The notes beneath the pieces were generated by a model, which did not search any database, was not told the DNA's origin, and saw nothing but the letters and a program-made list of their open reading frames with translations. A DNA stretch of 64,000 nt from Anaerolineae bacterium (GTDB lineage Bacteria > Chloroflexota > Anaerolineae > Epilineales > Epilineaceae). Of this stretch, positions 9,014 to 51,191 are shown piece after piece; within the stretch, counting starts at the first letter, position 1, and every line of letters begins with the position of its first letter. The stretch is taken from positions 1,036-65,035 of the forward strand of contig JBCLES010000012.1 in the NCBI GenBank assembly GCA_038913135.1. Direction: 5' to 3'. The translations under genes and the position numbers were made by a program.

Positions 9014-12000
9014 TCACCGATTGCGGAGTAGAAGCGGCAACCAGACTCGCACCGGCCGAGTGTTGGCCCGTCCGGGGCTGCCGTTCGAGCGGAGCGCGAT
9101 CCAATTCGTCGGATCGTTCCCGTAAACCAGCGCATCGACCCGTTCGAGCGATTCGCCATGTACGGCTCGCGAACCGGGCCACGGCGACTCCATCGCATAC
9201 TTCACGCGATCGATGACCACCCATGGGCCATCCTCGACGGTCGCCGACGAACCTTCAGGCGGAGCGACCAGCACGATCTCGCCGGTGGCACGGCCTAGAG
9301 TTCCCTCCCATGGCCCGAGCACCTGCACATCATCCGGCACGGAATGCAGGGTTCGGAAAACGCTTGGCTCTACGGAAGTCAGAAGCAGGAACTCGCCCGG
9401 ATACATGACGAACCCCGGCGGAAAGTGCACGATAACCGAACCGATTGCCGCCCACTTGCCGGTCGCGTCGCCATCGCCACCGCCCAGAGCCACCGGAGCA
9501 TCAGAAACGTTCAATAGCTCGACGAATTGAGGGTTTATCCCGCTCGGCCGAGCCAAGATCTCATTTATTACAACCGGCCCAATTGAGGGCGGCGCGTTCG
9601 TCGCGCCGTCGCCCGCACGAAATGTTTCGACGGTGTCAGGCGCGGACACACCGAACGTCGGCGTCACCAGCGCCGTGAAGTCGATGCCGCCAGCCGTCAC
9701 CAACCGACCGAACGAGACGTTCTGACGCGAAGCGAGGAATCGGGCGCGCCGGAAGTAACCGGTCGGCGCGCCGGAAGCGTCCGCGGAACAGAGAGTGACC
9801 TCCTCCCCATCCGCGCCGAAAGCAAAGCCCGCTCCGCCGGCCGCATTGCGCAGATCCGCCTCATAGAAGGCTGCGTATCCGCCAGGTTCGATAATCGTCC
9901 CGTCCGGAATCCTGAACTTGCGGGGCTCGTCCCGATCGTCCGAAAGGTACCACCCGCCGACGTCGACGGCGCCTTCGACCGAAGGATTGTGGAGTTCGAT
10001 AGCATCCTCGTAGGGAGGGTCCGAGCTGGCGAGAACCTCGCTTATCACCACGCGGCCGTCGAAGGCCGGCGCCCGATCGGGCCCGCCGGGCGAACCGCCG
10101 GGTCTTTCGCTTGCGCGCCAGCTTTCAGCATTCCGGGGAGGGATAGCCGGGTCGCGGAGGACCAAGGAATAGCCCAGACCGGCCGGCATCAGCGGCCAGA
10201 AATCGTCGTCGAGATATTTAGCCGACCAGATGACCGCTCCGTTCGGTGCGACGAGCGTGATCCGTTCCCCGCTGTTGGAAAGCCGGCCGTCGTATTCGCC
10301 ATGTACGCGCACGAGTGGGTGGCGGTCAACGAGCGCTGAGGGATCCATGGCCAGGACGAGCCGCCGGCCCGGCTCCAGCGTCGTCCCTTCCGCAAAGGTG
10401 AGAGTGACGCCATCCCGCACCGACACGCCGCTCAAGTCAGCGGTTATAGGCTCGAGGTTGACTATCTCGAGCCACTCCAAATCCGGGTTATCGGTCGGAT
10501 GGTACATCACCTCGGATACCGCAAGCCGCGGCGTACCAAGGGTCACTTCGGCGGCGGCGCTCCAGAGCCCTTCCGCCGTGCGAAGGCGTGCAACGATCTT
10601 GGTCAACCTGTTGGACGGCACGCCGATCGGCCCGCGATACTCACGGGCGCCGGGCGACAGGACAGCGCCGTGCCAAAGGCGTTCATCCGTCCACGCCTTT
10701 CGTGGATCGGAGCCGTCCAAGGTGTAGTAGAGCGTGCCTTCGCTGACCTGGCCCCAGCAGCCTTCGGCCAGCAGGTCGAGTGAGACAACGAAGCCTGAAC
10801 GAGACGTAGATTCTCCGGCCGCCCCGCGGATGCGCGGCGAACTGACCGGTGGAAAAAGTCCCGCGGAGCATAGCTGTTGAAGCAGATCGCCCGATCGGCT
10901 GGGAAAGAATTCCGAAAGCACCTGGTCGCGTTGAGGACGCCAATGGTCGTCGAGCGTCCACGTATTACCAAGAATCGGATGTATGAAAGCCCAATTCTCG
11001 CTTCGGGTCCTGTCGCCGAATGTAACGTCGCCCCACCGCGCCGATTCCCCGACGATTGCCCGTTCAACTCGGGCCGCGATCCTTTCATATCGCGCCGATG
11101 CATTCGCCGGTGCGAGTGCGCCGTCCTCGAAGAGATGCTTCCTGGCCCGATCGGCGAATGCAAGTCGGTACTCGGGGCTTCTGAGGAGCCATCCATGCAG
11201 GCCGGCGGCGCCTTCGGTTTCCACATGTTGTCCGCAACGCCTGGTCCCACACGTATCTGCGCCCGGCTTGTCGCTGCACGGACCACAGAAGTCGCCTTCC
11301 CGGCGGAGAGGAAGAACCTGTTCGTAATCCCACACAAAGAAACGGAAGCCGTCGTCACCGGCGCGGCTGCGCATCGCCGTCCAATTGTTATGCGGCCAGT
11401 CCCAATTGTCGCCATAGAGCTGGATAAGTGTGTAGTCGATGTAGTGATTCATTTCCAGGAACGCTTCCGCGAGCGAATAAGTGTCGCGATCGATCGCGCC
11501 GCCCGGTGCGCTTTCCCTCAGCGCCAGCAAGGACCTGAAGGCAATCGCATCGCCATCGTCCACCCGCCATCCGTCGGGACCTGCGTCAACGTCGGCCGCG
11601 ATCACGTCCCAATCGTCCTCTTGGCCGCCCATGTGATCGGCGCCGAAGGCGTCGTCAAGCTCCTCGGTCACGTTGTACAGTCCCCAATAGAGCCCGTTGA
11701 GGTACAGGTGCGCCCAAGTGCCCCTGGATGTCGCCGACCCCATATCGCCTTGCGTCTCCCGCCCCCATTCGTCGTGAATGTACTGCGCCTTACCCGCGAA
11801 GTAGTGGAGCGTATCCGCTTGGCCGGCGCGGAGGCGGAGTGCGTCAAAGCTGGTCGAACCTTCCCGCTCGAACAAGGGATAACTCAGCCGTCCTGAGCCA
11901 TACTCGCTCCGGAACCGGAGGCTGAAGGAGTGCTTGGCCATTCCGTCCGGCTTGCGGCCCCATCCGCCCGCTATACGAATGCCGGCATCGATCTGGAAGC

Positions 12001-12751
12001 CGGGATCCCCGTCAGCGCGCAACCATTCGGCCGAAGCAGGCCTTTCCCAAGGCCGTTCGACGATGCCGGTAGTCGGGTCGATCCACGACCCTTTTTCCAT
12101 AGGATGCGAATAGATGCCCAGAGTACCCGACTCAACCCCGAACAGGTCATCCGGATCCATCACGATCGAGATGCTCGGAATGCTCAGCAGATCGTCGCGG
12201 ATCGTCTCTCTGTATCGCGGATCCGCCAGCGTAATCCGGGTGTCCATGGCGTAGTCGGCTGGTACTGGTCGTCCAACCGATCGGCCCTCGGGATACGTGC
12301 CCCAAGTGTCCGGATAGCCTGGAGGTGCGCCAGGCTGGACGACGATATCATCCAGGAAGAGATAAGTCATCGTCATAGTAGGAGAGGGTCGATACCCGCT
12401 TCTAAAGGCAGCGGCGCGCACGACTGTGGTACTTTCTATCCGGATGGGTCCTACGTAGACTTCACCATGATCCGGTCGCGGCGCAGTGCCGTCGAGGGTG
12501 TAGCGGATCATCGCGTCTGGGAAATCTACGGAAAGATCGAGATCGAATGGCGCGTCGACAAACCCGTGTTCGCGGCTCGCGGAGATTGCCGGTAAGCCGC
12601 GGATGACGCTGCCGTTGACCGCTATCGGAAAGTAGAGCGGTCCTTCAGCGGCATGAGCTACCGTCCGCGGACAGACGAGCGGGCTAGCAGTTAGACAGGC
12701 GATTGCGATCACCGCAACATGCCTGCGATTCAAGCCCCAATTACCGCTCAT
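9014..12751 (-). CDS. CotH-family atypical protein kinase with lamin-tail (LTD) domains and N-terminal chitobiase/Fn3-like domains; secreted
   Basis: CotH core (…HDEWGRETQGDMGSATSRGTWAHLYLNGLYWGLYNVTEELDDAFGADHMGG…WDVIAADV…). Two LTD motifs (AVSEVMYHPTDNPDLEWLEIVN…, VVISEVLASSDPPYEDAIELHNP…GGWYLSDD). Signal peptide MSGNWGLNRRHVAVIAIACLTASPLV with GGGAG upstream of the ATG at 12751. Confidence 0.85.
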   Translation of the reverse strand: MSGNWGLNRRHVAVIAIACLTASPLVCPRTVAHAAEGPLYFPIAVNGSVIRGLPAISASREHGFVDAPFDLDLSVDFPDAMIRYTLDGTAPRPDHGEVYVGPIRIESTTVVRAAAFRSGYRPSPTMTMTYLFLDDIVVQPGAPPGYPDTWGTYPEGRSVGRPVPADYAMDTRITLADPRYRETIRDDLLSIPSISIVMDPDDLFGVESGTLGIYSHPMEKGSWIDPTTGIVERPWERPASAEWLRADGDPGFQIDAGIRIAGGWGRKPDGMAKHSFSLRFRSEYGSGRLSYPLFEREGSTSFDALRLRAGQADTLHYFAGKAQYIHDEWGRETQGDMGSATSRGTWAHLYLNGLYWGLYNVTEELDDAFGADHMGGQEDDWDVIAADVDAGPDGWRVDDGDAIAFRSLLALRESAPGGAIDRDTYSLAEAFLEMNHYIDYTLIQLYGDNWDWPHNNWTAMRSRAGDDGFRFFVWDYEQVLPLRREGDFCGPCSDKPGADTCGTRRCGQHVETEGAAGLHGWLLRSPEYRLAFADRARKHLFEDGALAPANASARYERIAARVERAIVGESARWGDVTFGDRTRSENWAFIHPILGNTWTLDDHWRPQRDQVLSEFFPSRSGDLLQQLCSAGLFPPVSSPRIRGAAGESTSRSGFVVSLDLLAEGCWGQVSEGTLYYTLDGSDPRKAWTDERLWHGAVLSPGAREYRGPIGVPSNRLTKIVARLRTAEGLWSAAAEVTLGTPRLAVSEVMYHPTDNPDLEWLEIVNLEPITADLSGVSVRDGVTLTFAEGTTLEPGRRLVLAMDPSALVDRHPLVRVHGEYDGRLSNSGERITLVAPNGAVIWSAKYLDDDFWPLMPAGLGYSLVLRDPAIPPRNAESWRASERPGGSPGGPDRAPAFDGRVVISEVLASSDPPYEDAIELHNPSVEGAVDVGGWYLSDDRDEPRKFRIPDGTIIEPGGYAAFYEADLRNAAGGAGFAFGADGEEVTLCSADASGAPTGYFRRARFLASRQNVSFGRLVTAGGIDFTALVTPTFGVSAPDTVETFRAGDGATNAPPSIGPVVINEILARPSGINPQFVELLNVSDAPVALGGGDGDATGKWAAIGSVIVHFPPGFVMYPGEFLLLTSVEPSVFRTLHSVPDDVQVLGPWEGTLGRATGEIVLVAPPEGSSATVEDGPWVVIDRVKYAMESPWPGSRAVHGESLERVDALVYGNDPTNWIALRSNGSPGRANTRPVRVWLPLLLRNR

Positions 12752-12858
12752 CCCACACTCCCGTCGTCGGCGCGCGATGTGCCGCTCTGTTTGCAATGAT
12801 ATCAACACTCGGGCCTTACTGGCGCGGACGGCTAGTAGTCCGATATTCCATGCCCGTT

Positions 12859-12943
12859 GGTTAAGATGTGTGCCCGGTTAAACTGTTTTCATTGTTCCGG
12901 CGATAGGTTAACCATTGATCGTTGAAGGCCCTGCAAGCTTGCA
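12859..12943. promoter_or_regulatory. Candidate operator elements in the divergent CotH / VTC promoter region: three GGTTAA direct repeats and a 12-bp palindrome TGCAAGCTTGCA
   Basis: GGTTAA at 12859-12864, 12876-12881 and 12906-12911 (the last as GGTTAACC); the first two are each preceded by TGCCCG. TGCAAGCTTGCA at 12932-12943. The region is locally AT-richer than its surroundings. Confidence 0.3.
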
Positions 12944-12975
12944 TCCGCAAGCACCCGTTCGCCCACTGAGGCATC

Positions 12976-13779
12976 ATGTCGCTCTCCGGATTCGATAGAA
13001 TCGAACTCAAGTACCTGGTCGATGACGCGCAACGCCGCGCTATCACGGAGGGCTTGCGCGATTGCGTGCCCGACGCTCACGGTGACGCCAGGGGCTGCTA
13101 TCCCATAACCTCCGCCTACTATGACGGGCCGGATCTGGCGATCTACTGGGATCGCGAGCGTGGCGTCCCGTCACGGCGCAAAATACGGGTCAGGGTATAC
13201 GGCGATTCCGGTACGGCGGGGCGGCCGGCGAGCTTCCTCGAGATCAAGCACAAGTACGGCAGGCGGATCTCGAAGCGCAGAGTAGAGCTGACGGTATCGG
13301 ATGGTCTCAGGGTGGGTCGTGGACTGGAGACGACGGCTGAGCTAAGCGCGGCTGGGCGTCTTATCGTCCAAGAAGCTCAGGGCCTGGTGAAGGCGAACCA
13401 GCTCAGGCCGACTTGCTGCGTGCGCTACATTCGCCAGGCGTTTCAGGGAAGTGCACCGAATGCCGATCTCCGCGTCACGTTCGACGACACCGTCGGCTGC
13501 CGGGCGTACGATCTGATCCCGAAGGCGGACGATACCGATTATCCTGTTCCGATCTTGAGCGACGGACTGTCCATCCTCGAGATCAAAGTAGACGTCAGTG
13601 CGCCTAAGTGGTTGGCCGATCTGATCGCATCCGTCGGCTGCGTTCAGCGGCCGATGAGCAAGTACTCTTGGGCGGTTGAAGCGCTTGGCCTGGTTCAACT
13701 CTCCGGCGCGGCGACCTTCTCGATGGTGGCGGCGCGCCGACGCACCGCGATCGAAGCACCGACCGGAGCACGTTCGTGA
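12976..13779 (+). CDS. VTC-domain (CYTH-like, polyphosphate-polymerase-type) protein
   Basis: N-terminal RIELKYLV (E-x-K of the CYTH/VTC fold), and ASFLEIKHKYGRRISKRRVE, which resembles the Vtc4 catalytic-domain family. Confidence 0.8.
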   Translation: MSLSGFDRIELKYLVDDAQRRAITEGLRDCVPDAHGDARGCYPITSAYYDGPDLAIYWDRERGVPSRRKIRVRVYGDSGTAGRPASFLEIKHKYGRRISKRRVELTVSDGLRVGRGLETTAELSAAGRLIVQEAQGLVKANQLRPTCCVRYIRQAFQGSAPNADLRVTFDDTVGCRAYDLIPKADDTDYPVPILSDGLSILEIKVDVSAPKWLADLIASVGCVQRPMSKYSWAVEALGLVQLSGAATFSMVAARRRTAIEAPTGARS

Positions 13780-14474
13780 CCGAACTGGAGCAGCTCTTCA
13801 TGCCACCGACAACAACCGCTCCCACGGCATCGCCCTTGACCGTGACGCTCGCCATATTGCTCGCTTTCGTGCTCACGCTGCTAATCGGCGCAGTGTATCA
13901 GCGCACCCATCGCGGCACGCGCTACAGTCAAGACTTCGTGCACGCCCTGGTGCTGCTCGGGACGCTCGTGACCGTGGTGATCATGGGCATCGGGCAGAAC
14001 ATAGCTGCCGCCTTCGGCATCTTCGCGGCCTTTTCGATCATTCGCTTTCGGCGCTCCCTGCCGGAGGCGCGCGACATCGGCTTCGTGTTCTTCGCGATGT
14101 CGGTCGGTCTAGCGGTCGGTTCGGGCGCCTTCGTGCTCGCGATAGTAACGACCCTGCTGGTGTCGCTCTTCGCCGTTTTGCTGGCCCGATTCGATCTATT
14201 CGCGCCTGAGCGTGCAAGCCATATCCTGAGAGTCCGTGTCACCAACGACATCGATTTCGAGGATGCGTTCGAGGAGCCCCTTCGCACGTTGGCGGCGGCT
14301 GTCTCTCTGATCTCGGTCGAATCCGTTCAGGCGGGGATGATGACCGAAGTGCGATATGCTATCCGCTTGGCTGACGGTGTGTCGCCACGCGACGTCGTCA
14401 CGGCATTCCAGGAGCGCAACGGCAACAATCGGGTGATCCTGGCCGCGACGGACCTTGAGCTAGATACCGACTGA
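13776..14474 (+). CDS. DUF4956-family membrane protein
   Basis: Polytopic membrane N-terminus with the IIRFRRSL motif typical of DUF4956. GTG start overlaps the VTC stop (GTGA). Confidence 0.8.
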   Translation: MTELEQLFMPPTTTAPTASPLTVTLAILLAFVLTLLIGAVYQRTHRGTRYSQDFVHALVLLGTLVTVVIMGIGQNIAAAFGIFAAFSIIRFRRSLPEARDIGFVFFAMSVGLAVGSGAFVLAIVTTLLVSLFAVLLARFDLFAPERASHILRVRVTNDIDFEDAFEEPLRTLAAAVSLISVESVQAGMMTEVRYAIRLADGVSPRDVVTAFQERNGNNRVILAATDLELDTD

Positions 14475-42715: not shown

Positions 42716-43593
42716 GCTGGAGCAGCGCGAAGGAAGCTTTGTCTGAGATCAAGGCGGGACGACTGCTGATCGTAACCGACGCCGCGGATCGCGAGAATGA
42801 GGGCGACCTTGTAGTAGCGGCGGAACACGCGACGCCCGAAGTGATCAACTTCATGGTGACGCACGGGCGTGGGCTTGTCTGTGTGCCGATGCGTCCAGAG
42901 CGGCTCGACGCGCTTGAATTACCGTTGATGGTCGCCCACAACACGACGCCTCACGGCACGGCTTTCACCGTCCCGGTCGATGCGCGCGAGGGGACGACGA
43001 CCGGCATTTCCGCCGAAGAGCGGGCCACGACGATTGCCGCGCTCATCGATCCGTCGACTCGACCCGATGCGCTGCTCCGACCAGGGCATGTTTTCCCGTT
43101 GCGCTCCGATCCGGGCGGCGTTTTGGCGCGGGCCGGCCATACGGAGGCGGCGGTCGACTTGGCGCATCTTGCGGGCTGCTACCCAGCCGGCGTTGTGTGC
43201 GAGATTCTGGACGATGACGGAACGATGGCACGCGGTCCGGCCCTTGAGGCCTTCGCGGCGCGACACGGGATCAAGCGTCTCGCGATCGCAGACCTGATCC
43301 AGCACCTCGCCGGCTCGGGCGCGAGCGTTTCAGTCCCGTGGACGGCGACGAACGCGAAAGAGGGTGAGACAGCTGGCGAAATTTATCGCAATGCGCCCCC
43401 CTCGGCGCCGGCCGCGATTGCTGAAGGGGCGACTGTCGAAGGCTCGATTCACGAAAGGGCGATTGTCGAAAGCGCGACTTTCGTTGGGGCCACTGTCGAT
43501 CGGGCGATTCCGGCGGCCGCCGTGAGTGACTCCGCTCAGCCGCATCGAGCCGCGACGTTCGCTCTGTTCAGCGGTTCGGGAGATCGCTCGTGA
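42712..43593 (+). CDS. ribB: 3,4-dihydroxy-2-butanone-4-phosphate synthase (RibB domain only) with an ~85-aa C-terminal tail of decapeptide-like repeats; no GTP cyclohydrolase II domain
   Basis: DHBPS motifs ([33 protein letters not shown]). The C-terminus, [30 protein letters not shown], is encoded by three ~30-nt imperfect tandem repeats. Confidence 0.85.
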
Positions 43594-44081
43594 TACACGA
43601 AGGCCGCGCCGACGGCGATGGGCTGAAGGTCGGCATCGTAGTCGCGCGCTGGAACGAGCGTGTTACGCGCGCACTTCTGGATGGAGCGCTGGGCGCACTT
43701 CGGCGCGCCGGTGTCGACTCGGGTGCGGCAGGCGAAGGCGATGGTGTCGAGGTCGCATGGGTGCCTGGGGCTTGGGAAATCCCGCTCGCCGCGTCCTGGA
43801 TGGCCGAAAGCGGTCGCTTCGCGGCCATCGTTTGCCTCGGCGCCGTCATCCGGGGCGAGACGCCGCACTTCGACTTCATAGCGGGCGGCGCGATGCGCGG
43901 TATAGCCGACGTCGCGATCCGTACAGGCGTGCCGGTCTCGGCCGGCATCCTGACATGTGACACTTCCGAGCAAGCGCTCGAGCGTTCGGGGCTGAAGGGC
44001 GGCAACAAGGGCGCGGAGGCCGCGCTCGCGGCGTTGGAGATGGCGCGGCTGCGGGAGAAGTTGGTGGTCGACGCGCCGTAA
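43590..44081 (+). CDS. ribH: 6,7-dimethyl-8-ribityllumazine synthase
   Basis: [12 protein letters not shown]…[13 protein letters not shown]…[15 protein letters not shown]… GTG start overlapping the ribB stop. Confidence 0.9.
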
Positions 44082-44086
44082 AAGGT

Positions 44087-45079
44087 TCAGATCCTCGGTC
44101 GAGTCATCGGCGCGATCCCGACCACGGCGTCCGCTACGTCCGGCAGATGGGCATAACCGCTCGGATATCGGAAGCGGAAGATCGGGACTATCTCCACCAA
44201 GCGCGCAAGCCGGGCCAGCCTCTGCGGTTGGAGACCGCGGTCTTCGATAGCTCGCGGAGAGAAGGTGTTCTGGGTCAATTCGAGCATCGCTTCGGTCGGC
44301 CCAAGCCGTTCGAACCAAAACTCTCCGTTCTCGGGGGGCAGGGGTGCTGCCGATTCGAAAGTTGAAGTCTGGACGCCCTTATCGCGTTCTTCGCGCGTCG
44401 GGATGATTATCGCGCCGAGCGTTGCGGGCTCGGAGTGGAATGCGCCGAAGAGGCCGGTCCCGATCGGAACACGCACTTTGCGATAAGCGCGGTGCACTAT
44501 TGGCAACTGCCGCCACGCCTCGCCGACGAAGTACTCTGCACCATCCGGCCACATCCGCATCTGTGGATAGCCGGGGTTCGCACTGATTCTCGAATTGAAT
44601 CCGGGCCGAATCCCCTGCTGTCCCGGGTCCACTTTCAGCGCAAGGATGTCGTCCGTGAGCAGTCCATACCCCTTGGCGACAAGCGCCGCGGCAAGTCCTG
44701 TCTTTCCACCGCGGCTGGTGGCCATGAAAGCGACCGCCTGGCCATCAATCACCACGGCTGAAGCGTGCAACGCGAGGGCTCCCCGATACTCGAGCCAAGT
44801 CGTCATCGCAGAACTCAGAAAATGAATCTCGGCCATCGTGTCGGGCTCACCCGCGGGGACATGCGCTACGATCCGATCTGCGAAGATCCGAAAGTCGACC
44901 ACATCGGTTACTCGGATGCCCGCCAATGGCGCACCGGACGCATCGTCGCTTAAAGGCACGGGATCAGTGGTCATCTCGAAGCGGAGATCGACTTGTGAGC
45001 CCTTCGGCGCCGGCAGTAGAGGGCTCTCGAAATCGTGCTCGCAACCGATCGTCACGCCATAGACGCGCCGGAGCTTCAT
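44087..45079 (-). CDS. HprK-related P-loop kinase-like protein
   Basis: The central block ALALHASAVVIDGQAVAFMATSRGGKTGLAAALVAKGYGLLTDDILAL resembles the HPr kinase C-terminal nucleotide-binding domain (Walker-A-like SRGGKTG). The rest is novel. Confidence 0.55.
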   Translation of the reverse strand: MKLRRVYGVTIGCEHDFESPLLPAPKGSQVDLRFEMTTDPVPLSDDASGAPLAGIRVTDVVDFRIFADRIVAHVPAGEPDTMAEIHFLSSAMTTWLEYRGALALHASAVVIDGQAVAFMATSRGGKTGLAAALVAKGYGLLTDDILALKVDPGQQGIRPGFNSRISANPGYPQMRMWPDGAEYFVGEAWRQLPIVHRAYRKVRVPIGTGLFGAFHSEPATLGAIIIPTREERDKGVQTSTFESAAPLPPENGEFWFERLGPTEAMLELTQNTFSPRAIEDRGLQPQRLARLARLVEIVPIFRFRYPSGYAHLPDVADAVVGIAPMTRPRI

Positions 45080-45780
45080 TTGCGCTGCCTATTGGCGACG
45101 TGCGCGAACCGCCGCTGGAACCACATTCGAATCCGTTTTGCACGCCCCGCCTTCCGAAAACGTACGGCCCAAGGTGAGATGAAAGCGGCATCGAAATCAT
45201 CGTCGCGGACAAAGCCCCGTCGGGCAAACGCCGTCGCCCAATACTCCGGCGGTTGGACGTTCACATGTGTAGGCTCGTCAAGGTCGGTCGGCGACGAAGA
45301 GAAAAGGATGTCGTCAGTGTGAGCGCAGAGAACGTCGAGCGCCCGTTCGCCGTCTTCGGCTGACAGATGCTCCAGAATCTCGATACAGGTGATCAAGTCG
45401 TAGCGGCCCGGAAGGGGCTCGAGCGCGCTCCCGACCGTGCAATAAGCTGAGAGGTCGGCCGGCACTTGCCCGATCGCGTACTCGGAAACATCGATGCCCC
45501 TCGCATCCACACCGCGTTCGCGCAAAGCTTCGACCAGCATCCCGATCGCGCAACCTAAGTCCATGACCGTCTTGGGGCCGATATCGGCCACAATTCTGTC
45601 GGCGACATCGCCGAAGAAGCTCATCCAGCGGTCGTCACGCCGGTACGGATGAGGTCCACAGCCACCCGCGTAGTAAGCTGCGTCGTAGGCATCGGGCGGT
45701 GGTGTAGAGGGTGGGGGTGACGAGGGCGGAGGTGTCGATGGCAGGGGTGTCGAGGCCGCGCCGGATCCCGATGTGCTCAC
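45076..45780 (-). CDS. Class I SAM-dependent methyltransferase (Methyltransf_23-like) with Pro/Ser/Thr-rich N-terminus
   Basis: YDAAYYAGGCGPHPYRRDDRWMSFFGDVADRIVADIGPKTVMDLGCAIGML (SAM motif I), and motif II (DLITCIEILEHL). GTG start at 45780 with GAGGTGAG upstream. ATGA overlap with the kinase-like gene. Confidence 0.7.
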   Translation of the reverse strand: MSTSGSGAASTPLPSTPPPSSPPPSTPPPDAYDAAYYAGGCGPHPYRRDDRWMSFFGDVADRIVADIGPKTVMDLGCAIGMLVEALRERGVDARGIDVSEYAIGQVPADLSAYCTVGSALEPLPGRYDLITCIEILEHLSAEDGERALDVLCAHTDDILFSSSPTDLDEPTHVNVQPPEYWATAFARRGFVRDDDFDAAFISPWAVRFRKAGRAKRIRMWFQRRFAHVANRQRK

Positions 45781-45904
45781 GTTCTCACCTCGGTTACGGC
45801 GGCCGGGATTGGACCGCAATTGTCCGGTACTCCGTATGCCGCCGTGCGCGCCTTGGAACGTTCGAAACGACTGTGGCGCGTCGCGTACAAGTCCAGCCAT
45901 CCGT

Positions 45905-46077
45905 GCCCGTCGAGATCCAGTGTGGCCAAAATCTGTCCGACGACCATCTCCTGCCTCACGCGAAGCCGCGAAGGGACTTCCTTCCAGTGAGGCCTACCTT
46001 CGCGCCCTCCGCGCCTTCGCGTGAGATTAGACCGGGAAGGATTACCGGACAGATTTTGGCCACACCCGTCGAGATCC
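45905..46077. repeat. Complex repeat element: a 20-bp perfect inverted repeat (GTGTGGCCAAAATCTGTCCG at 45919-45938, and its reverse complement at 46045-64) flanked by a 14-bp direct repeat CCCGTCGAGATCCA (45905-18 and 46064-77), enclosing a nested CTCACGCGAAG / CTTCGCGTGAG hairpin
   Basis: Read directly from the sequence; see the matching finding. Confidence 0.7.
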
Positions 46078-46309
46078 ATGGTGACCGCCGAAGATGATCA
46101 ATGATCAACGAAGCATGCGGACTGCTCCGCCATGTCTTCGAACGAGCCGTCGCCCGGGCACTGTATCAATCGTTCGGAACAGTGTCAATGGCGTCGCACT
46201 CAAACGCAAAGATGTGCTCGAAAGTGGGAACGTTCTCCAATGGAAGCTGATCGACGCCCTCTCCATCCCGCTGCATCTGTGGGGTTGCACTTAAGCTATT
46301 CTGCCGCCC

Positions 46310-49300
46310 ATGGTGCCAACGCTATCTGTGCGGACCGATGGGCAAACCAAGCCGGCTGGCAAGCGATCGCCCGCCCGCCAGCTGCGCGCTTTCGCGGAGC
46401 ACGCAGCTCTTGCTTCCGCGATCGCTGTCCCGCTCGTCTTTTCCGTATTTACGGATCGGATCTTCGAAGCGGAGAAGGCCGGTCTGATACGCGTGCTCGG
46501 CGCCGCGGCGCTTATCGGATCGCTCGCGGCATTGTGGCCCTCTTTCCGAAGCGAGCCTGTTGTCGCGAACACAGACGCGCCTGCTCGGGCGGCTGCCACG
46601 GCTCGATTCCGTCAACTCATCAGCGTTCAGGGCAGCGCACTTACAATAGCCCTTGTCGCCGTCCTACTCTCTGAACTCGTCTCCACCGCGGTATCCGTCG
46701 CGCCGATGCCGAGCATCTGGGGGAGCTACGATCGCGCTCAGGGCCTGGTCACGACTGCTGCGCTTATCGCGCTGGCTTCGGCCGCCGCCTTGATCGCCAT
46801 GCAGCCTCGCGGTCCATCGCGCCTAGCGGACGCAATCGGTCTCACAGTCCTACCCACCGGACTTTACGCTCTCATCCAGCGCGCCGGCCTCGACCCCATC
46901 CCTTGGCTCGGCGACGTGGTTATCCGGGTGTCGGGAAGCGCCGGAAGCAGCACCCTTTTCGCGGCCCACTTGGCTATCGCGCTCCCGTTTACGGCGCTCG
47001 GAGCTGTGTCCGCATGGAAAGCAGTCACGCGGCCGACTAACATCCCGCAACACGATCCCGAGATCGATCCCACGGGCCGGGGTCCCGCCGGCCGGCGCCT
47101 TCATAACCATCGCCTTCTTGACCTCCGCCTCGCCATCCGGCTTCTCGCGTTAGCCGTCGGGGTCACAGCGCTTGTCCTCTCCGGCAGCCGTGGTCCTGCG
47201 CTCGGCCTGGCGGCCGGGTTCTCGGTCGCGCTTCTCGCGTCGGCCGCCATAGCGGGCAGCTGGCGCCGGGCGCTCGCGGTGGTAGCAGCCGTGTTCGGGG
47301 GCATCGCGTTCGTGATCGCCCTCAACCGTGCGCCGGCCGCATTCAGCCCGATCGTCGACCTGCCCATGATCGACAGGCTGTCTACCGCTTTAGACCCTGG
47401 TCGAAGCACCTCGCGCGTACGGCTGCTCCTGTGGGAGGGTTCTGTCGATGCGATCGCATCGAATCCGGACCGATTGGCCTTCGGCTTCGGCCCCGAAACC
47501 ACCGAGCTAGTATGGGCGCCGTACTATCCATCCATTCTCGCCTACGATGAACCGCGCGGCTGGGTGCCCGATCGAGCGCATTCCTTCGCGCTCGATACTC
47601 TGCTGACCAACGGCGTGTTCGGTCTGATCGCACTTCTCATGCTGTTCGGCGCCGCCGCGATAGCATGCCTCGATGTTCTGGGCCTGACAGTTACACCGGC
47701 GACCCGCCGGAGCGTCATCGCCTCGATGCTCTTCGGCGGGCTACTATGCGGTGCGATCGCGGGGCTGCTCGACGGCGCGTGGCGCATCATTGCTCCCGTT
47801 TCCGGCCTCGGGCTTGTCGCCGGGCTCTCTATCTGGCTCGCGGCCGCCACATGGCGGCGACGAGCGGCGGGGCTTTCTTTCGCGTCGAAATCCGAAGAAC
47901 CGTCTTCGAGCGCCGAATTCGGCGATGCTGGCTTCGCCGTCGCGGCTCTCGGCGCTCTCGTAGCCCACTTTGTCGAGCTCCAAGTGAGCTTCGCGGTCGG
48001 CGCTACGCGTTCGGTCTTCTTCCTGGTATGCGGCGCGCTGCTCGGACTCGCAATCCGAAGGGCAAGATCGTCTACCGAAAGCGGTGGTTCTCGCGGCGAT
48101 CGACCGGCCTCCGCGGCGCTAGACCTCCCAGTTAGAAAGGGCGACTCCCGCCTCCTACCATCGATCATCGCCATCACTGCTATCTACTCCTTCGCCCGGC
48201 CGGGCCTCACCGGCGGCGGTGCGCCAATCGTTGTGGCGATCGTCGTCGCGTCGGCGATAGGTTGCCTTTTTGCGCTCGCCAACCGACCCACAGAAACGTG
48301 GCATGCGCTTCTTCGACTCGCTGTGATCGCCGGCGCATACGGAGCGGTGCACTTTTTCGTGATCGCAAGACTCACCGTAGGGCCGGAGGAAGCCGTCCTG
48401 GGCTCGGCGACATCGCTCGCCCTCTACGTCGCCTCGCTCCTGGGCCTCATCGCATACGAGGTTGCCGGCGCAACCGTGTCCGTACCCAAGTCCGAGGCAG
48501 GGCGCGCGATCGATGATCTCGGTTCGGCGCACGGCACAGGCGGTCCGCACGGTACGCGCGTCGGCAATTCGTTCTCGGGTCGGCACGTCGCAACCGGGCT
48601 CGCGGCGCTTTCGGCTTTCGCCCTTGCCGTCCCCTTATGGATTCTCCCATCGACCGCCGACGCGCTCCAGAAGGAGGCTCGTCTAGCCTGGGAGGCGCCC
48701 GTGCCGGACTTGCGGGCACGCGGAGAGAGCGGGCGTGCCGAGTCTTTGCTGAGTCGGGCACGGGAGCGCTATGCACGCGCCGCGCGGCTAGTTTCGTACC
48801 AGCCGCGTCATGCCTTCGCCGAAGCATTCGCCGCCGAAGTTCACGGCGACATCGTGAGCGAACGCTTGGACCGCGCGGTTGCGCAAAGCAACCTGGGCGA
48901 GGAATTCGACGTGCCCGGCGGACCGGGGGAGTACTCGCCAGGGCTGTTGGGCGGCGACACTCTGCGGTGGGCCAAAGAGCGTGACAGGGCCTTCGAACTA
49001 GCGCTCGGGCACATCGCCGGCGCGGGCAGGCTCATGGGTCCGTCGCCCAGCCCGCCCATCGCTCGCGCCCGAGCCTTGCGAGTGTGGGCTGAGCGCACGC
49101 GCACCGATGCGCAGCGCTCCGAGCGTCTCGACACAGCCGCGTCCGCGTACCATGAGGCCATCGCCGCAGCCCCGAACTGGCCCGAGGTTCGCGAAGAGGC
49201 CGCGCGGACCGCTCTGCTGCGTGGACTGCCGGATGAAGCGGTCGCTATGTGCGCGGAGGCGCTTCGAATCGACCCTTTCTACTCACGTTGCCACGCGACC

Positions 49301-49642
49301 TTGGCTAGGGCCTACGCGGCCGCCGGCGACGATGAGGCGGCCGCGGAAGCATGGTCCGATTACTTCAGCGACTCGCGCAACGCCGGCGACGCCGACGCCT
49401 ATCGCGAGCGGCTCAGGACGCTTCTTGCCTTGGGTCGGACCACGGCCGCCTTGGACGCTGCGCGCGACGTTCTTCGCATTGCGCCAGACGACGCGCGGAC
49501 ACATGCCGACTTGGCCGTACTTCTCGAGCGTAGCGGCGATCTGGATGCGGCGCGCGATTCGGCGGCCACCGGAGCGCTCCTTGCACCCAACGATCCAGGG
49601 ATTTCGGCTCTGGTCGAACAGCTCGGTCAGCGGCAGGAGTGA
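46310..49642 (+). CDS. O-antigen ligase-like (Wzy_C) polytopic membrane protein with a large C-terminal TPR-repeat domain
   Basis: Wzy_C signature around LVLSGSRGPALGL, with multiple TM helices in the first ~700 aa. C-terminal TPR-like helices (…AVAMCAEALRIDPFYSRCHATLARAYAAAGDDEAAAEAW…). Confidence 0.65.
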   Translation: MVPTLSVRTDGQTKPAGKRSPARQLRAFAEHAALASAIAVPLVFSVFTDRIFEAEKAGLIRVLGAAALIGSLAALWPSFRSEPVVANTDAPARAAATARFRQLISVQGSALTIALVAVLLSELVSTAVSVAPMPSIWGSYDRAQGLVTTAALIALASAAALIAMQPRGPSRLADAIGLTVLPTGLYALIQRAGLDPIPWLGDVVIRVSGSAGSSTLFAAHLAIALPFTALGAVSAWKAVTRPTNIPQHDPEIDPTGRGPAGRRLHNHRLLDLRLAIRLLALAVGVTALVLSGSRGPALGLAAGFSVALLASAAIAGSWRRALAVVAAVFGGIAFVIALNRAPAAFSPIVDLPMIDRLSTALDPGRSTSRVRLLLWEGSVDAIASNPDRLAFGFGPETTELVWAPYYPSILAYDEPRGWVPDRAHSFALDTLLTNGVFGLIALLMLFGAAAIACLDVLGLTVTPATRRSVIASMLFGGLLCGAIAGLLDGAWRIIAPVSGLGLVAGLSIWLAAATWRRRAAGLSFASKSEEPSSSAEFGDAGFAVAALGALVAHFVELQVSFAVGATRSVFFLVCGALLGLAIRRARSSTESGGSRGDRPASAALDLPVRKGDSRLLPSIIAITAIYSFARPGLTGGGAPIVVAIVVASAIGCLFALANRPTETWHALLRLAVIAGAYGAVHFFVIARLTVGPEEAVLGSATSLALYVASLLGLIAYEVAGATVSVPKSEAGRAIDDLGSAHGTGGPHGTRVGNSFSGRHVATGLAALSAFALAVPLWILPSTADALQKEARLAWEAPVPDLRARGESGRAESLLSRARERYARAARLVSYQPRHAFAEAFAAEVHGDIVSERLDRAVAQSNLGEEFDVPGGPGEYSPGLLGGDTLRWAKERDRAFELALGHIAGAGRLMGPSPSPPIARARALRVWAERTRTDAQRSERLDTAASAYHEAIAAAPNWPEVREEAARTALLRGLPDEAVAMCAEALRIDPFYSRCHATLARAYAAAGDDEAAAEAWSDYFSDSRNAGDADAYRERLRTLLALGRTTAALDAARDVLRIAPDDARTHADLAVLLERSGDLDAARDSAATGALLAPNDPGISALVEQLGQRQE

Positions 49643-49693: not shown

Positions 49694-51100
49694 CTATCGG
49701 TTGTTCTTCACGACCCGCGGCAAGTGAATCACTATCCGCTCGGGAGTCGGCGAAGCTACCGGAGTATCGATCGCCGTAGGTGTGTCGGACGGAGTCGGCG
49801 AGCCCGTCGATGCAGGAGTTTCGCTCATCTCGGGGGTGATCGTCGGCTCCAGCGTACCGGTCGGAGCGGGGGTGTCAGACGGGGCCGGCGTATCGGTGAA
49901 CTCCGACGTCGGCGTTGCCGGAGACGAGCAGCGGAGTCCCCAGGCTTCGCGCTTCGATGAACCGGCGCTATCACCGCCGTAGAAGATCGCCATTCCGGCA
50001 GCGTCGCTCCATGCGCCCGTGACCATTGTTACGCCCGCGGGGCTCCTGGAGCCACTCGGATCGAGCTCTTGCCAAGTCGTGAATTCGGTGTTGAGGTCGA
50101 GAGCGAACACGTCGTCAAGACGGCCCGTGCCGTTGCGCGTGCCGCCGAAGACCACCATCCAATTCAAATCGGGCACATAGACCGCGGCATGGTCATAACG
50201 AACTCCGGGTGGCGAGCCTATCGGATCGAGCTCCACCCAGGTCGCGCCTGCGAGCCCATCGGAGAGATCGAGCGCCCAAGTGTCGTTCAAGCCGTTGTTC
50301 CAGTTGCGCGTCCCACCGAAGACGATCATGCGCTGGCCGGCAGTATCGTAGACCGCCGAATGAGCGAAGCGCGCCGTCGGCGAGCCCGGCAAGCTTGCGG
50401 AAGACCATTCGTCCGTTCCGATGTGGATCGAAGAAATCGCGTTGGTGGCCGTGTTCGCCTCTTCGCCCGTCCTGCCGCCGAACATGACGAACGAGTCCAG
50501 TTCGTCCAGCCAGACAGCCGAGGCATCAGCCAGAGGGCCGCTGCCGTCGGCGGACAGTGCTGACCACGTCGCGCTACTTTCGCCGATTTCCAGCGCGTAG
50601 CCCGTTCGAACTACATCGCGTGGGGCAAAGGCGCCTCGCATCCCGTGGTAAGGAATTCCGCCCGCGGTAACTGGCGAACTCCAAGTGAAGGTTCCTCCAC
50701 CGCCGGCAATTTCATCGACGCCGCCATATGTGTACATGGTCGTCGTACCGTCGCCGTCCCGCGACGCCGACATGTGGTCAGCACGATCCCTGACCGACGC
50801 TCCGCTTGGCGAAAGCTCGCTCCAGGTGCCGGCCGCGCTTCCACTTAGATCCAAAAGGTGCACGTCGTCCTTAATTTCAGCGTCGCGCGAGGTGCGCTCG
50901 ACGCCGCCGAAGGCGACAACACCGGCTCCGAACACCGTCGCAAGCGTATGGTGACTGCGCGCTTCGCCGCTATCCAGGGCAACCCACTCACAGGTCACAG
51001 CACCCTGTAGCGCCGGCACGGCGCCGACGAAGTCCATCGAGGCGATCACCACAAGCGGAAAAATCACGATAGCAGCCTGGGACAATCGCTTCACCAACAT
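49694..51100 (-). CDS. Secreted Kelch-repeat beta-propeller protein with Pro/Thr-rich C-terminal tail
   Basis: Signal peptide MLVKRLSQAAIVIFPLVVIAS, with GAGGAG 6 nt upstream of the ATG at 51100. Kelch-type repeats (W..L.P.G…R..H.A…..MIVFGG). C-terminal PT-rich segment. Confidence 0.75.
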   Translation of the reverse strand: MLVKRLSQAAIVIFPLVVIASMDFVGAVPALQGAVTCEWVALDSGEARSHHTLATVFGAGVVAFGGVERTSRDAEIKDDVHLLDLSGSAAGTWSELSPSGASVRDRADHMSASRDGDGTTTMYTYGGVDEIAGGGGTFTWSSPVTAGGIPYHGMRGAFAPRDVVRTGYALEIGESSATWSALSADGSGPLADASAVWLDELDSFVMFGGRTGEEANTATNAISSIHIGTDEWSSASLPGSPTARFAHSAVYDTAGQRMIVFGGTRNWNNGLNDTWALDLSDGLAGATWVELDPIGSPPGVRYDHAAVYVPDLNWMVVFGGTRNGTGRLDDVFALDLNTEFTTWQELDPSGSRSPAGVTMVTGAWSDAAGMAIFYGGDSAGSSKREAWGLRCSSPATPTSEFTDTPAPSDTPAPTGTLEPTITPEMSETPASTGSPTPSDTPTAIDTPVASPTPERIVIHLPRVVKNNR

Positions 51101-51191
51101 CGCGGACTCCTCAGCGTGGTCTCCAGCACTAGATCGCAACATTCCAACTTTGGATGTCGCGTTTGCTGATCGGGCCTAGTATACACGGGCG

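What the first reader, a model, noticed from the sequence alone, without database searches (positions are those of the whole stretch)
44087..45780. HprK-related P-loop kinase-like gene translationally coupled to a SAM methyltransferase
The two genes form a minus-strand operon with an ATGA overlap. The first is a class I SAM methyltransferase with a PST-rich N-terminus. The second is a 330-aa protein whose only recognisable part is an HPr-kinase-like nucleotide-binding core (…ATSRGGKTGLAAALVAKGYGLLTDDILAL…). Stand-alone HprK-like kinases turn up in peptide- and small-molecule-modification clusters (for example lasso-peptide kinases). Here there is no PTS, no HPr and no obvious RiPP maturase nearby, so the substrate is unknown. 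The operon sits immediately downstream (on its own strand) of a highly structured repeat element.
Basis: partly seen in the sequence, partly recalled or inferred. Interest (0 to 1): 0.55.

Follow-up and report, generated by a model that had tools for sequence, protein, structure and literature searches.

The report
Orphaned lasso-peptide-type kinase behind a methyltransferase
The 330-residue protein is a serine-kinase-type enzyme from a large family that normally decorates lasso peptides, but here its lasso partner genes are missing and it sits, overlapping by four bases, behind a cell-envelope-type methyltransferase, so its present target is unknown.

Summary
Two minus-strand genes, a class I SAM methyltransferase (45076-45780) and a 330-aa protein (44087-45079), overlap in ATGA. 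The 330-aa protein has a confident HprK/PEPCK-type fold and the catalytic His / Walker A Lys-Thr / Asp-Asp spacing reported for proven lasso-peptide kinases.

Its family is large: 4,611 clusters at E<=1e-30. It is almost always embedded in lasso-peptide gene clusters. Of 34 long genome loci, 32 carried a hallmark in my screen, and a Pfam look at the other two found RiPP-type neighbours.

The window's gene belongs to a small subclade of 8 loci, probably Chloroflexota. In this subclade the kinase always follows this methyltransferase. None of 127 other loci has that methyltransferase. The basal member (L007) still has a lasso precursor and cyclase next door. The window has none in 64 kb.

The methyltransferase is the conserved partner of the divergent Wzy_C/TPR gene even where the kinase is absent (L071), and a homolog lies in a rhamnose/glycosyltransferase cluster. 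The pairing is therefore secondary.

The kinase is under purifying selection, so it is functional. Its substrate cannot be named. This is an ordinary family in an unusual, orphaned context. Interest is modest.

The parts
44087..45079 (-). 330-aa HprK/PEPCK-fold P-loop kinase, member of the lasso-cluster-associated 'YPQMRMWP' kinase family
   Evidence: ORF. AF2 model with pLDDT 89.2 and pTM 0.89. Foldseek top hits are ATP-PEPCK (2e-7) and HprK/P (5e-6). 133 homologs. Family size. Contexts.
44699..44722 (-). Walker A loop A120-T-S-R-G-G-K126-T127 (AxxxxGKT)
   Evidence: Read from the sequence. G125 and K126 are invariant in alignment A1. They align to the HprK P-loop.
44648..44767 (-). Catalytic span from H105 to D143-D144. 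The spacing H(+20)G(+21)K(+22)T(+38,+39)DD is identical to the H148...G168-K169-S170...D186-D187 motif of proven lasso kinases.
   Evidence: Sequence. H105 and D144 are invariant and D143 is nearly invariant in A1. The motif is taken from PMC10368454.
44546..44569 (-). Family signature Y171-PQMRMW-P178
   Evidence: P172, M174 and R175 are invariant and the other positions are >=90% conserved. This pattern retrieved 61 genome loci and 66 metagenome loci.
45076..45780 (-). Class I SAM methyltransferase (234 aa from GTG 45780; the ORF is open up to 45900). It has an S/T/P-rich N-terminal extension and lacks the C-terminal coiled-coil tail of its relatives.
   Evidence: Pfam Methyltransf_23 at 4.3e-12. 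Homologs at 55-79% identity. Alignment A2. N-terminal length comparison.
45076..45079 (-). ATGA stop/start overlap (translational coupling)
   Evidence: The same 4-nt overlap is seen in L003, L073 and L141.
45785..45790 (-). Shine-Dalgarno-like AGGTGA in front of GTG 45780
   Evidence: Read from the sequence.
45906..46086 (.). Nested hairpin element in the divergent intergenic region. It has 20-nt perfect arms, an inner pair of 21-nt arms, and 22-nt flanking direct repeats.
   Evidence: -103.5 kcal/mol, z -5.95. No Rfam hit. Unique in the window and absent from all 140 other loci. The relative L073 has only 34 bases between the called ends of the two genes.
46160..46188 (-). Sigma-70-like promoter match TTGACA-17-TACAGT upstream of the hairpin and the operon (consensus match only)
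46310..49642 (+). Divergent neighbour: 1110-aa Wzy_C (O-antigen-ligase-like) membrane protein with C-terminal TPR. It is the conserved partner of the MTase.
   Evidence: Pfam Wzy_C at 8.4e-14 plus TPR. The Wzy_C-MTase pair is conserved in L002, L003/4, L069, L071 and L073, with a homologous stretch in L007.

Best explanation
The 330-aa gene encodes an ATP-dependent Ser/Thr peptide kinase of the HprK/PEPCK fold. It belongs to a large family, not named by any curated model I could run, whose normal job is to phosphorylate the precursor peptide inside lasso-peptide biosynthetic clusters. The usual gene order is cyclase, precursor, PqqD-fusion, kinase. In one small lineage, probably Chloroflexota, such a cluster sat between a conserved Wzy_C/methyltransferase pair and the riboflavin operon. 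The basal member (L007) still has the order MTase, kinase, lasso precursor, next to a cyclase. In the window's lineage the precursor, cyclase and recognition (PqqD) genes are gone from the locus, and only the kinase remains, now overlapping the stop codon of the methyltransferase. The kinase is still under purifying selection with an intact active site. It most likely still transfers phosphate to a Ser/Thr of a ribosomally made peptide or protein encoded elsewhere. The methyltransferase is a neighbour by history, an envelope-glycan-type enzyme tied to Wzy_C, rather than a co-tailoring partner.

Shown: the fold, the motif, the family context, the clade restriction of the pairing, the loss of lasso genes from the locus, and purifying selection. 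Inferred: kinase activity, a Ser/Thr peptide substrate, action in trans, and the direction of the evolutionary scenario.
For: Fold: the AF2 model has pLDDT 89.2. Foldseek hits PEPCK and HprK/P at 2e-7 to 5e-6. The family profile hits Coxiella HprK at 1.4e-4.

Motif: H105, G125-K126-T127 and D143-D144 have exactly the spacing of the motif conserved in proven lasso kinases.

Family context: of the 61 genome loci, 39 have an Asn-synthase-like cyclase, 43 a YxxPxLxxxGxxxxxTx precursor and 37 a PqqD/RRE gene. Of the 34 loci of at least 15 kb, 32 have at least one hallmark. The two exceptions also carry RiPP-type neighbours: PqqD plus a transglutaminase-like protein in one, NTP_transf_5 plus an ABC exporter in the other. 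Of 30 metagenome loci of at least 5 kb, 23 have the cyclase and 26 a PqqD gene.

Clade: the MTase-linked kinases form one clade nested in the family, with L007 basal. L007 encodes ...YSRPKLFRVGALVELTGTV|GDMGVIDNPMF... starting 119 bases after the kinase stop, plus an Asn synthase and a second kinase.

Orphan state: there are no lasso genes or precursor in the 64-kb window.

MTase independence: L071 has the same synteny (Kelch, Wzy_C, MTase, rib operon) without the kinase. L072 has the MTase inside an rml/glycosyltransferase cluster. The MTase is absent from 127 other kinase loci.

Functionality: the ORF is intact in 8 loci at 37-63% identity. dN/dS is roughly 0.15-0.5. 48 of 53 family-conserved columns are retained in the clade.
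Against: No substrate was found. No PqqD/RRE protein is nearby, although the tested lasso kinase BsfK needs one for efficient activity.

Five or six lineages kept the kinase for a long time without local lasso genes, which fits a new local role at least as well as action in trans.

The kinase evolves faster than all its neighbours: 41% identity against 74-84% for rib genes between the window and L003.

The tree is a simple NJ tree without support values, and dS is saturated.

The rest of the genome could not be searched.
Confidence: 0.55

Rival explanations
1. Co-option. After the lasso genes were lost, the kinase was recruited into the Wzy_C/TPR-methyltransferase envelope module. Together with the MTase it modifies a surface glycan or glycoprotein. 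Examples would be a phosphate plus methyl cap analogous to WbdD, or phosphorylation of Ser/Thr-Pro-rich segments such as the MTase's own N-terminal tail or the neighbouring Kelch protein's PT-rich tail.
For: Translational coupling or a very short gap to the MTase is seen in all 8 clade loci. The Wzy_C, MTase and kinase trio survives different downstream rearrangements in L002 and L007 compared with the rib-operon loci. The gene has been retained for a long time under purifying selection without local lasso genes. The MTase relatives lie in glycan clusters and carry a coiled-coil tail. Kinase-linked MTases have the four longest called S/T/P/G-rich N-terminal extensions among 106 homologs, and the window's is about 30 residues from the GTG start.
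Against: No member of the HprK/PEPCK fold is known to me to phosphorylate sugars (own knowledge). The active-site and family-conserved positions are essentially unchanged from the lasso-linked relatives. L071 keeps Wzy_C and the MTase without the kinase, so the module works without it. The N-terminal extension correlation rests on one clade and on uncertain start codons. The MTase's similarity to WbdD is only generic (E 1e-3).
Confidence: 0.25
2. Decaying relic. The kinase is a leftover of a lost lasso cluster with no remaining function, kept only because it overlaps the MTase stop codon.
For: It is the fastest-evolving gene in the neighbourhood. It is absent from the syntenic locus L071. There are large low-complexity insertions in L003 and L069.
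Against: The reading frame is intact in 8 loci down to 37% identity. dN/dS is below 1 in all pairs. All catalytic residues and 48 of 53 conserved columns are kept. The AF2 model is confident.
Confidence: 0.08
3. Genuine HPr kinase/phosphorylase or a PEPCK-like small-molecule kinase, for example one linked to the adjacent riboflavin operon.
For: Weak matches to HprK and PEPCK in sequence and structure. The convergent ribH ends 5 bases from the kinase stop.
Against: Scores are far below the curated cut-offs (16.4 against 33.3 bits, and 14.4 against 240 bits). Outside the C-terminal P-loop stretch there is no significant match to any HprK model. No HPr or PTS gene was found in the part of the window I annotated: the large ORFs and the genes called at about 34-55 kb. 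The rib linkage is plain synteny: L071 has the rib operon without the kinase, and L002 and L007 have the kinase without the rib operon. The wider family never sits with rib genes.
Confidence: 0.03

Closest known systems
Lasso-peptide precursor kinases (PadeK, ThcoK, SyanK, PsmK, BsfK)
   Same: They are HprK-homologous stand-alone P-loop kinases. The His...G-K-S/T...D-D catalytic motif has identical spacing. The protein family here is found in lasso clusters with cyclase, PqqD/RRE, B2 protease, nucleotidyltransferase and ABC exporter, the same accessory set as described for paeninodin and pseudomycoidin.
   Different: The window's gene has no lasso genes within 64 kb and no RRE partner. It is coupled to a methyltransferase instead of the PqqD-fusion gene. 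Two glycines of the published motif are replaced (A120, R123), giving AxxxxGKT. Most precursors of this family do not end in Ser (5 of 44) and instead often carry a G-S/T near the C-terminus (30 of 44). Direct sequence comparison with the characterised enzymes was not possible.
HprK-related kinase A (TIGR04352) and ScmC (TIGR04249 / PF27840)
   Same: TIGR04352 is the best-scoring curated model. 34 of 35 family members hit it weakly. A few relatives carry a precomputed PF27840 (ScmC) hit.
   Different: The score is 30.9 bits against a cut-off of 200 and covers only about 50 residues around the P-loop. The window protein itself has no ScmC hit.
HPr kinase/phosphorylase (HprK/P) and ATP-PEPCK
   Same: The catalytic-domain fold and P-loop are shared.
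   Different: Outside the P-loop stretch there is no match to HprK models. There is no HPr or PTS context. Sequence identity is 10-20%. All scores are below family cut-offs.
WbdD (E. coli O9a O-antigen chain terminator: kinase plus methyltransferase plus coiled coil)
   Same: This is a functional analogy only. A kinase and a SAM methyltransferase are encoded together next to O-antigen-type machinery, and the MTase relatives have a C-terminal coiled-coil tail.
   Different: By my own knowledge the WbdD kinase has a eukaryotic-like protein-kinase fold, not the HprK fold. MTase similarity is generic (E about 1e-3). The window MTase has lost the coiled coil. No glycan evidence was obtained here.
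Lasso-peptide methyltransferases (StspM / lassomycin-type C-terminal O-methyltransferase)
   Same: Each is a SAM methyltransferase adjacent to lasso-type tailoring genes.
   Different: The window MTase family occurs widely without any lasso genes, in glycan clusters and paired with Wzy_C. The MTase that recurs in this kinase family's lasso clusters is a different, PRMT-like enzyme.

Membership tests
HPr kinase/phosphorylase (PF07475, TIGR00679) | Score above the curated cut-off of the family models | tested here: not met
   PF07475 scores 16.4 bits against 33.3. TIGR00679 scores 14.4 against 240.
HPr kinase/phosphorylase (PF07475, TIGR00679) | P-loop plus catalytic Asp-Asp in a PEPCK-like catalytic fold | tested here: met
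   A120xxxxGKT127 and D143-D144. Foldseek hits to HprK/P at 5e-6 and PEPCK at 2e-7.
HPr kinase/phosphorylase (PF07475, TIGR00679) | HPr/PTS partner genes and an HprK N-terminal domain | tested here: not met
   No HPr or PTS gene in the annotated part of the window. Matches to the HprK models cover only residues about 100-152.
HprK-related kinase A (TIGR04352) | Full-length match above the 200-bit cut-off | tested here: not met
   30.9 bits over residues 100-151 only. The same holds for 34 of 35 relatives.
ScmC (PF27840 / TIGR04249) | Match to the family model | tested here: not met
   No TIGR04249 hit for the window protein at E<=0.01. The precomputed Pfam column shows '-' for P0001. PF27840 is not in the local Pfam copy: the relative P0025, which carries a precomputed PF27840 hit, gave none locally. 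That half of the test relies on precomputed data.
Lasso-peptide precursor kinases | Conserved H / G-x-x-G-x-G-K-S / D-D motif of characterised enzymes (PMC10368454) | tested here: met
   H105, G125, K126, T127, D143 and D144 are at identical spacing. Two glycines are replaced by A120 and R123, still giving a Walker A of the form AxxxxGKT.
Lasso-peptide precursor kinases | Encoded in a lasso cluster (cyclase, B1/RRE, B2, precursor) | tested here: not met
   None of these is present in the 64-kb window. The feature is met for the family at large and for the basal clade member L007.
Lasso-peptide precursor kinases | Sequence homology to PadeK, ThcoK, SyanK or BsfK | not testable with these tools
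   Their sequences were not retrievable here. None is in the PDB sequence set.
Lasso-peptide precursor kinases | ATP-dependent phosphorylation of a precursor Ser/Thr | not testable with these tools
   Biochemical assay needed.
Class I SAM-dependent methyltransferase (Methyltransf_23) | Score above the Pfam cut-off and a glycine-rich SAM-binding motif | tested here: met
   46.5 bits against 27. The DxGCAxG motif is invariant in A2.
WbdD-type kinase-methyltransferase chain terminator | Homologous MTase and kinase domains plus a coiled-coil ruler | tested here: not met
   The MTase profile hits WbdD only at E about 1e-3, among generic MTases. The kinase is HprK-fold. The coiled-coil tail is absent in the window MTase.

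The most novel reading that the evidence does not exclude
A lasso-peptide tailoring kinase has been domesticated. After the RiPP genes were lost, it became a fixed, translationally coupled component of a Wzy_C/TPR-methyltransferase envelope module. It now phosphorylates a non-RiPP target, either a surface glycoconjugate that the MTase then methylates, or the Ser/Thr/Pro-rich tail of the MTase or a neighbouring secreted protein. That would be the first case of an HprK-fold RiPP kinase working outside RiPP biosynthesis and carbon regulation.
Probability: 0.2. Interest if true: 0.6.

Novelty: new member of a known kind. Interest (0 to 1): 0.33.

Why it matters
The result gives an evidence-based family assignment to a gene that databases leave as 'hypothetical protein' with no Pfam domain. 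It belongs to a very large set of HprK-fold kinases, thousands of clusters, that mark lasso-peptide gene clusters in Acidobacteriota, Chloroflexota, Actinomycetota, Gemmatimonadota, cyanobacteria and some methanogens.

The window's copy is one of only six MTase-linked loci (seven with the near-duplicate L004), against about 125 loci elsewhere in the family, that have lost every maturase and RiPP-type neighbour yet remain under selection. That makes it a small natural experiment on what happens to a RiPP tailoring enzyme when its pathway disappears.

The practical value is modest. It cautions genome miners against calling a RiPP cluster from this kinase alone. It also supplies a recognisable signature (YPQMRMWP plus AxxxxGKT...DD) for finding phosphorylated lasso peptides.

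Tried and rejected
- **Rfam:** a search of 43000-47500 found nothing, so the hairpin is not a known RNA family.
- **Precursor search:** a regex and an HMM built from 44 family precursors were run against all six frames of the window, L002 and L003. There was no hit. Only L007 scored (7e-10).
- **The 56-aa ORF at 45777-45947,** called upstream of the MTase in the database, is rejected as a precursor. It lies in the hairpin element and has no counterpart in L073, where only 34 bases separate the two called genes. It also has no match to the precursor HMM.
- **PADLOC** search for a defence-system role: no kinase hit, and only a weak generic MTase hit.
- **Riboflavin link:** rejected as plain synteny.
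- **Metagenome scan with the single protein,** meant to enlarge the MTase-linked clade: it returned 66 loci, but all came from the general family and none carried the MTase.
- **Literature search for 'ScmC / HprK-related kinase':** returned only unrelated acronyms.
- **dN/dS:** computed, but dS is saturated (>=1), so only the qualitative conclusion of omega below 1 is used.
- **Two apparent orphans in the wider family** (L024, L033) turned out to have RiPP-type neighbours that my clustering had missed: PqqD plus a transglutaminase-like protein in L024, and NTP_transf_5 plus an ABC exporter in L033.
Full report
**1. What is in the sequence**

The window is part of contig JBCLET010000002.1 of assembly GCA_038913075.1. 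G+C is about 63%. On the minus strand there is a 330-aa ORF at 44087-45079 and, upstream, an ORF open from 45900 down to 45076. The two share ATGA at 45076-45079, so the upstream TGA stop lies inside the downstream ATG start. The upstream gene most plausibly starts at GTG 45780, which is preceded by AGGTGA. The database's shorter call of 182 aa removes the YDAAYYAGGCG...W..FF block that is invariant in homologs.

The neighbours are:
- the convergent ribD-ribE-ribBA-ribH operon, which ends 5 bases from the kinase stop;
- a divergent 1110-aa Wzy_C plus TPR membrane protein at 46310-49642;
- a Kelch-repeat protein with a PT-rich tail.

**2. The two proteins**

The upstream protein is a class I SAM methyltransferase (Methyltransf_23, 4.3e-12, above cut-off).

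Sequence models recognise only about 50 residues of the 330-aa protein around a P-loop, always below curated cut-offs. Hpr_kinase_C scores 16.4 against 33.3 bits. HprK_rel_A scores 30.9 against 200 bits. A phmmer search of PDB sequences gives Coxiella HprK at E = 0.028.

An AlphaFold2 model built on 35 homologs is confident throughout (pLDDT 89.2, pTM 0.89). Foldseek matches ATP-dependent PEPCK (2e-7) and HprK/P (5e-6). The family profile reaches HprK at 1.4e-4.

The invariant residues of the family are E97, H105, G125, K126, D144, P172, M174, R175, K201, R229 and R287. They include a Walker A loop, A120-T-S-R-G-G-K-T127. They also include the His...Lys-Thr...Asp-Asp arrangement, with exactly the spacing (+21, +22, +38, +39 from the His) of the motif H148...K169-S170...D186-D187. 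That motif is reported as conserved among experimentally proven lasso-peptide kinases (PMC10368454).

**3. What the family does elsewhere**

The family is large. A profile search of 1.84 billion cluster representatives gave 29,938 hits at E<=1e-3, 17,440 at <=1e-10 and 4,611 at <=1e-30. No curated model captures it. 34 of 35 members hit HprK_rel_A, but only weakly.

I fetched 61 loci from species-representative genomes. They come from Acidobacteriota, Chloroflexota, Actinomycetota, Gemmatimonadota, Deinococcota, Bacteroidota, cyanobacteria, Deltaproteobacteria, Methanolinea and Methanothrix. I called ORFs, clustered them and annotated the recurrent clusters. The recurrent neighbours, counted over 65 loci, were:

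| Neighbour | Loci |
|---|---|
| Asn-synthetase-like enzyme (the lasso cyclase type) | 36 |
| About 380-aa protein ending in a PqqD domain | 28 |
| Stand-alone PqqD | 16 |
| Transglut_core3 protease (lasso B2 type) | 11 |
| ABC exporter | 10 |
| PRMT-like methyltransferase | 9 |
| NTP_transf_5 nucleotidyltransferase | 9 |
| Large SdrD_B-like protein | 18 |

A search for the classical lasso leader motif Y..P.[LIVM]...G.{4,8}T. found short ORFs with that leader and a 15-25-residue core. The hits were in 46 distinct loci, two of them copies of the same contig. An example is ...YAPPQLIAWGTLLDLTQ|GPGGFQFDGASGGSRAI.

Counting only the 61 genome loci, 54 have at least one lasso hallmark. Of the 34 loci of at least 15 kb, 32 do, and 27 have both cyclase and precursor. 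The two exceptions still carry RiPP-type neighbours: PqqD and a transglutaminase-like protein in L024, and NTP_transf_5 and an ABC exporter in L033.

An independent set of 66 metagenome loci shows the same picture. Of 30 loci of at least 5 kb, 23 have the cyclase, 26 a PqqD gene and 19 a precursor.

The usual order is cyclase, precursor, PqqD-fusion, kinase. The PqqD-fusion gene overlaps or abuts the kinase start in 17 loci.

This accessory set (kinase, nucleotidyltransferase, split B1/B2, ABC exporter) is the one described for phosphorylated lasso peptides such as paeninodin and pseudomycoidin. There the HprK homolog phosphorylates a Ser of the linear precursor (PMC8498205). For BsfK the reaction is strongly stimulated by the PqqD-like B1 protein (PMC10368454).

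**4. How the window differs**

The window has none of these partners. tblastn with every member of the cyclase, PqqD, PqqD-fusion, B2, NTP_transf_5, PRMT and SdrD_B clusters found nothing in 64 kb. Only an unrelated ABC ATPase was hit. A precursor HMM found nothing. Pfam annotation of the other large ORFs shows ordinary genes and no RiPP maturase. They include a subtilase, a thiolase, a CotH/VTC cluster, gyrase subunits and FG-GAP/TPR proteins.

In the window the methyltransferase occupies the position of the PqqD-fusion gene. That methyltransferase is found next to the kinase only in the window and these loci:
- L141 (P0002, 69% identical kinase);
- L073 (P0003, 63%);
- L002 (P0004, 54%);
- L003/L004 (P0005, 41%);
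- L069 (a 397-aa homolog with insertions, hhalign E = 1e-67);
- L007 (P0011, 39%).

None of the 127 other loci contains the methyltransferase.

In a neighbour-joining tree these kinases form one clade nested among the lasso-linked ones, with L007 branching first (rough tree, no support values).

L007 is the informative case. Its gene order is a Wzy_C homolog (split into two ORFs), then MTase, then kinase, then a precursor...YSRPKLFRVGALVELTGTV|GDMGVIDNPMFQLKTSGTTFYDVGAGF. The precursor scores 7e-10 against the HMM. Next come a convergent Asn synthase, a second more distant HprK-like kinase, a PRMT-like MTase and an SdrD_B-like protein. L002 keeps only SdrD_B-like proteins on both sides. The window, L003/4, L069, L073 and L141 have the riboflavin operon directly after the kinase.

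**5. The methyltransferase is not the kinase's original partner**

Its homologs (55-67% identical) are abundant, and the named ones are from Anaerolineae/Ardenticatenales MAGs. I therefore take the window to be Chloroflexota; this is an inference.

- L071 has exactly the window's synteny: Kelch, Wzy_C, MTase, ribH-ribBA-ribE-ribD, ABC transporter. It has no kinase.
- L072 has the MTase inside a dTDP-rhamnose/glycosyltransferase cluster.
- Most homologs carry an 80-100-residue C-terminal tail that looks like a coiled coil. The window, L073, L003 and L141 have lost it.

The conserved unit is therefore Wzy_C plus MTase, a likely envelope-glycan pair. The kinase is an addition. By rib-gene identity L071 is closer to the window than L069 is, so L071 probably lost the kinase. 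This last step is inference.

**6. Is the orphan kinase alive?**

Between the window and L003 the rib proteins are 74-84% identical, the MTase 76%, Wzy_C 59% and the kinase 41%. It is the fastest-evolving gene in the block. Three things argue that it is still functional:
- The reading frame is intact in all eight loci.
- Nei-Gojobori dN/dS is about 0.15-0.5 in every pair (dS is saturated, so this is only qualitative).
- 48 of the 53 columns that are at least 80% conserved in the lasso-linked relatives keep the same residue in the clade, including every catalytic position.

It is therefore a functional enzyme whose active site has not been remodelled.

**7. Interpretation**

The best reading is an orphaned lasso-type Ser/Thr peptide kinase. 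It is left behind after the cluster it served was lost from this locus, and it is now co-expressed with an unrelated envelope methyltransferase. Because the active site is unchanged, I expect it still to phosphorylate a Ser/Thr of a ribosomal peptide or protein, encoded elsewhere. My confidence is about 0.55 for the whole statement and about 0.9 for the family assignment.

The main rival (about 0.25) is co-option into the Wzy_C/MTase module. In its favour are strict retention of the trio, coupling in all eight loci, and the long survival of the gene without lasso genes. One further observation also favours it. Kinase-linked MTases have the four longest called N-terminal S/T/P/G-rich extensions among 106 homologs: 30-44 residues against a median of 9 and a maximum of 28. 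The window's extension is about 30 residues, and L002 is an exception at 11. Against co-option:
- the kinase is dispensable in L071;
- the active site is unchanged;
- no sugar kinase is known to me in this fold (own knowledge);
- the extension correlation rests on a single clade and on uncertain start codons.

A dead relic (about 0.08) and a true HprK or PEPCK-like metabolic kinase (about 0.03) are poorly supported.

**8. The upstream element**

The 529-bp divergent intergenic region contains a 181-bp nested palindrome at 45906-46086. It has 20-nt perfect arms, inner 21-nt arms and 22-nt flanking direct repeats. It folds at -103.5 kcal/mol, z = -5.95. It has no Rfam match and no second copy in the window. 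It is absent from all other fetched loci. L073 has only 34 bases between the two called genes. It looks like a lineage-specific insertion, a MITE-like element or a regulatory hairpin, rather than a conserved part of the operon. A sigma-70-like match lies just upstream of it on the operon's strand (46188-46160).

**9. Verdict**

The gene is a new member of a known kind of enzyme in an atypical, orphaned context. The substrate remains unknown and cannot be settled without the full genome or an experiment.

Noticed in passing
window 45906-46086: A 181-bp nested hairpin with flanking 22-nt direct repeats lies in the divergent promoter region. It is unique to this genome among 141 loci, has no Rfam family, and is absent from the closest relative with sequence (L073). 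It may be a MITE-like insertion or a lineage-specific regulatory structure. A promoter-like site at 46188-46160 (-) would put it in the operon's 5' leader.
   Followed up: partly
window 45691-45780 (MTase residues 1-30) and P0265, P0266, P0269, P0272: Methyltransferases that are followed by the kinase have the four longest called S/T/P/G-rich N-terminal extensions among 106 homologs: 30-44 aa against a median of 9 and a maximum of 28. The window's extension is about 30 aa from the GTG start. L002 is an exception at 11 aa. The extension could be a phospho-acceptor tail, or just a clade-specific, start-codon-dependent artefact.
   Followed up: partly
window 45076-45150 (MTase C-terminus), alignment A2: Relatives of the MTase carry an 80-100-residue C-terminal tail with a coiled-coil look. 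The tail is lost in the window, L073, L003 and L141 but kept in L002, L007 and L069.
   Followed up: partly
L013, L017, L022, L031, L036, L037, L039, L055, L064, L065, L002, L007 and others: Large secreted SdrD_B/CarboxypepD_reg-like proteins (600-1700 aa) recur next to these lasso-type clusters in several phyla: 18 of 65 genome loci and 7 of 30 metagenome loci. They flank the MTase-kinase pair in L002. Their role in a lasso system is unexplained.
   Followed up: no
L010 8674-9984, L016 8737-9921, L031 8793-9695, L057 137-1288 and others: In 17-28 loci the gene overlapping the kinase start encodes an N-terminal domain of about 300 aa with no Pfam hit, fused to a C-terminal PqqD (RRE) domain. 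The N-domain has a phosphoribosyltransferase-like VLDDVxxSG stretch. This is probably the leader-recognition partner of the kinase in this family.
   Followed up: no
L010 (Methanolinea MAG), L024 (Methanothrix MAG): Methanogenic archaea carry the same kinase. L010 has a full lasso set: B2, cyclase, precursor, PqqD-fusion, kinase, ABC exporter and nucleotidyltransferase. L024 has a reduced set of PqqD, kinase and a transglutaminase-like protein.
   Followed up: partly
L007 10114-11094 (-): The basal clade member has a second, much more divergent HprK-like kinase with a precomputed weak ScmC hit. It sits between the Asn synthase and a PRMT-like methyltransferase, so that lasso cluster encodes two kinases and two methyltransferases.
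   Followed up: no
44 family precursors (L008-L067): The core peptides of this kinase family rarely end in Ser (5 of 44) but often carry a Gly-Ser/Thr pair within the last 14 residues (30 of 44). This suggests an internal phosphorylation site, unlike the C-terminal Ser used by PadeK, ThcoK and SyanK.
   Followed up: partly
window 9014-14474: A 1264-aa protein with CotH kinase, lamin-tail and chitobiase-C domains lies next to VTC-domain and DUF4956 genes. This is a CotH/VTC-type cluster unrelated to the finding.
   Followed up: no
window 49694-51142 (-): A Kelch beta-propeller protein has a long Pro/Thr/Ser-rich C-terminal tail. It is conserved beside the Wzy_C/TPR gene in L004, L069 and L071. 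It is a candidate O-glycosylated surface protein for the Wzy_C-type enzyme (speculative).
   Followed up: no
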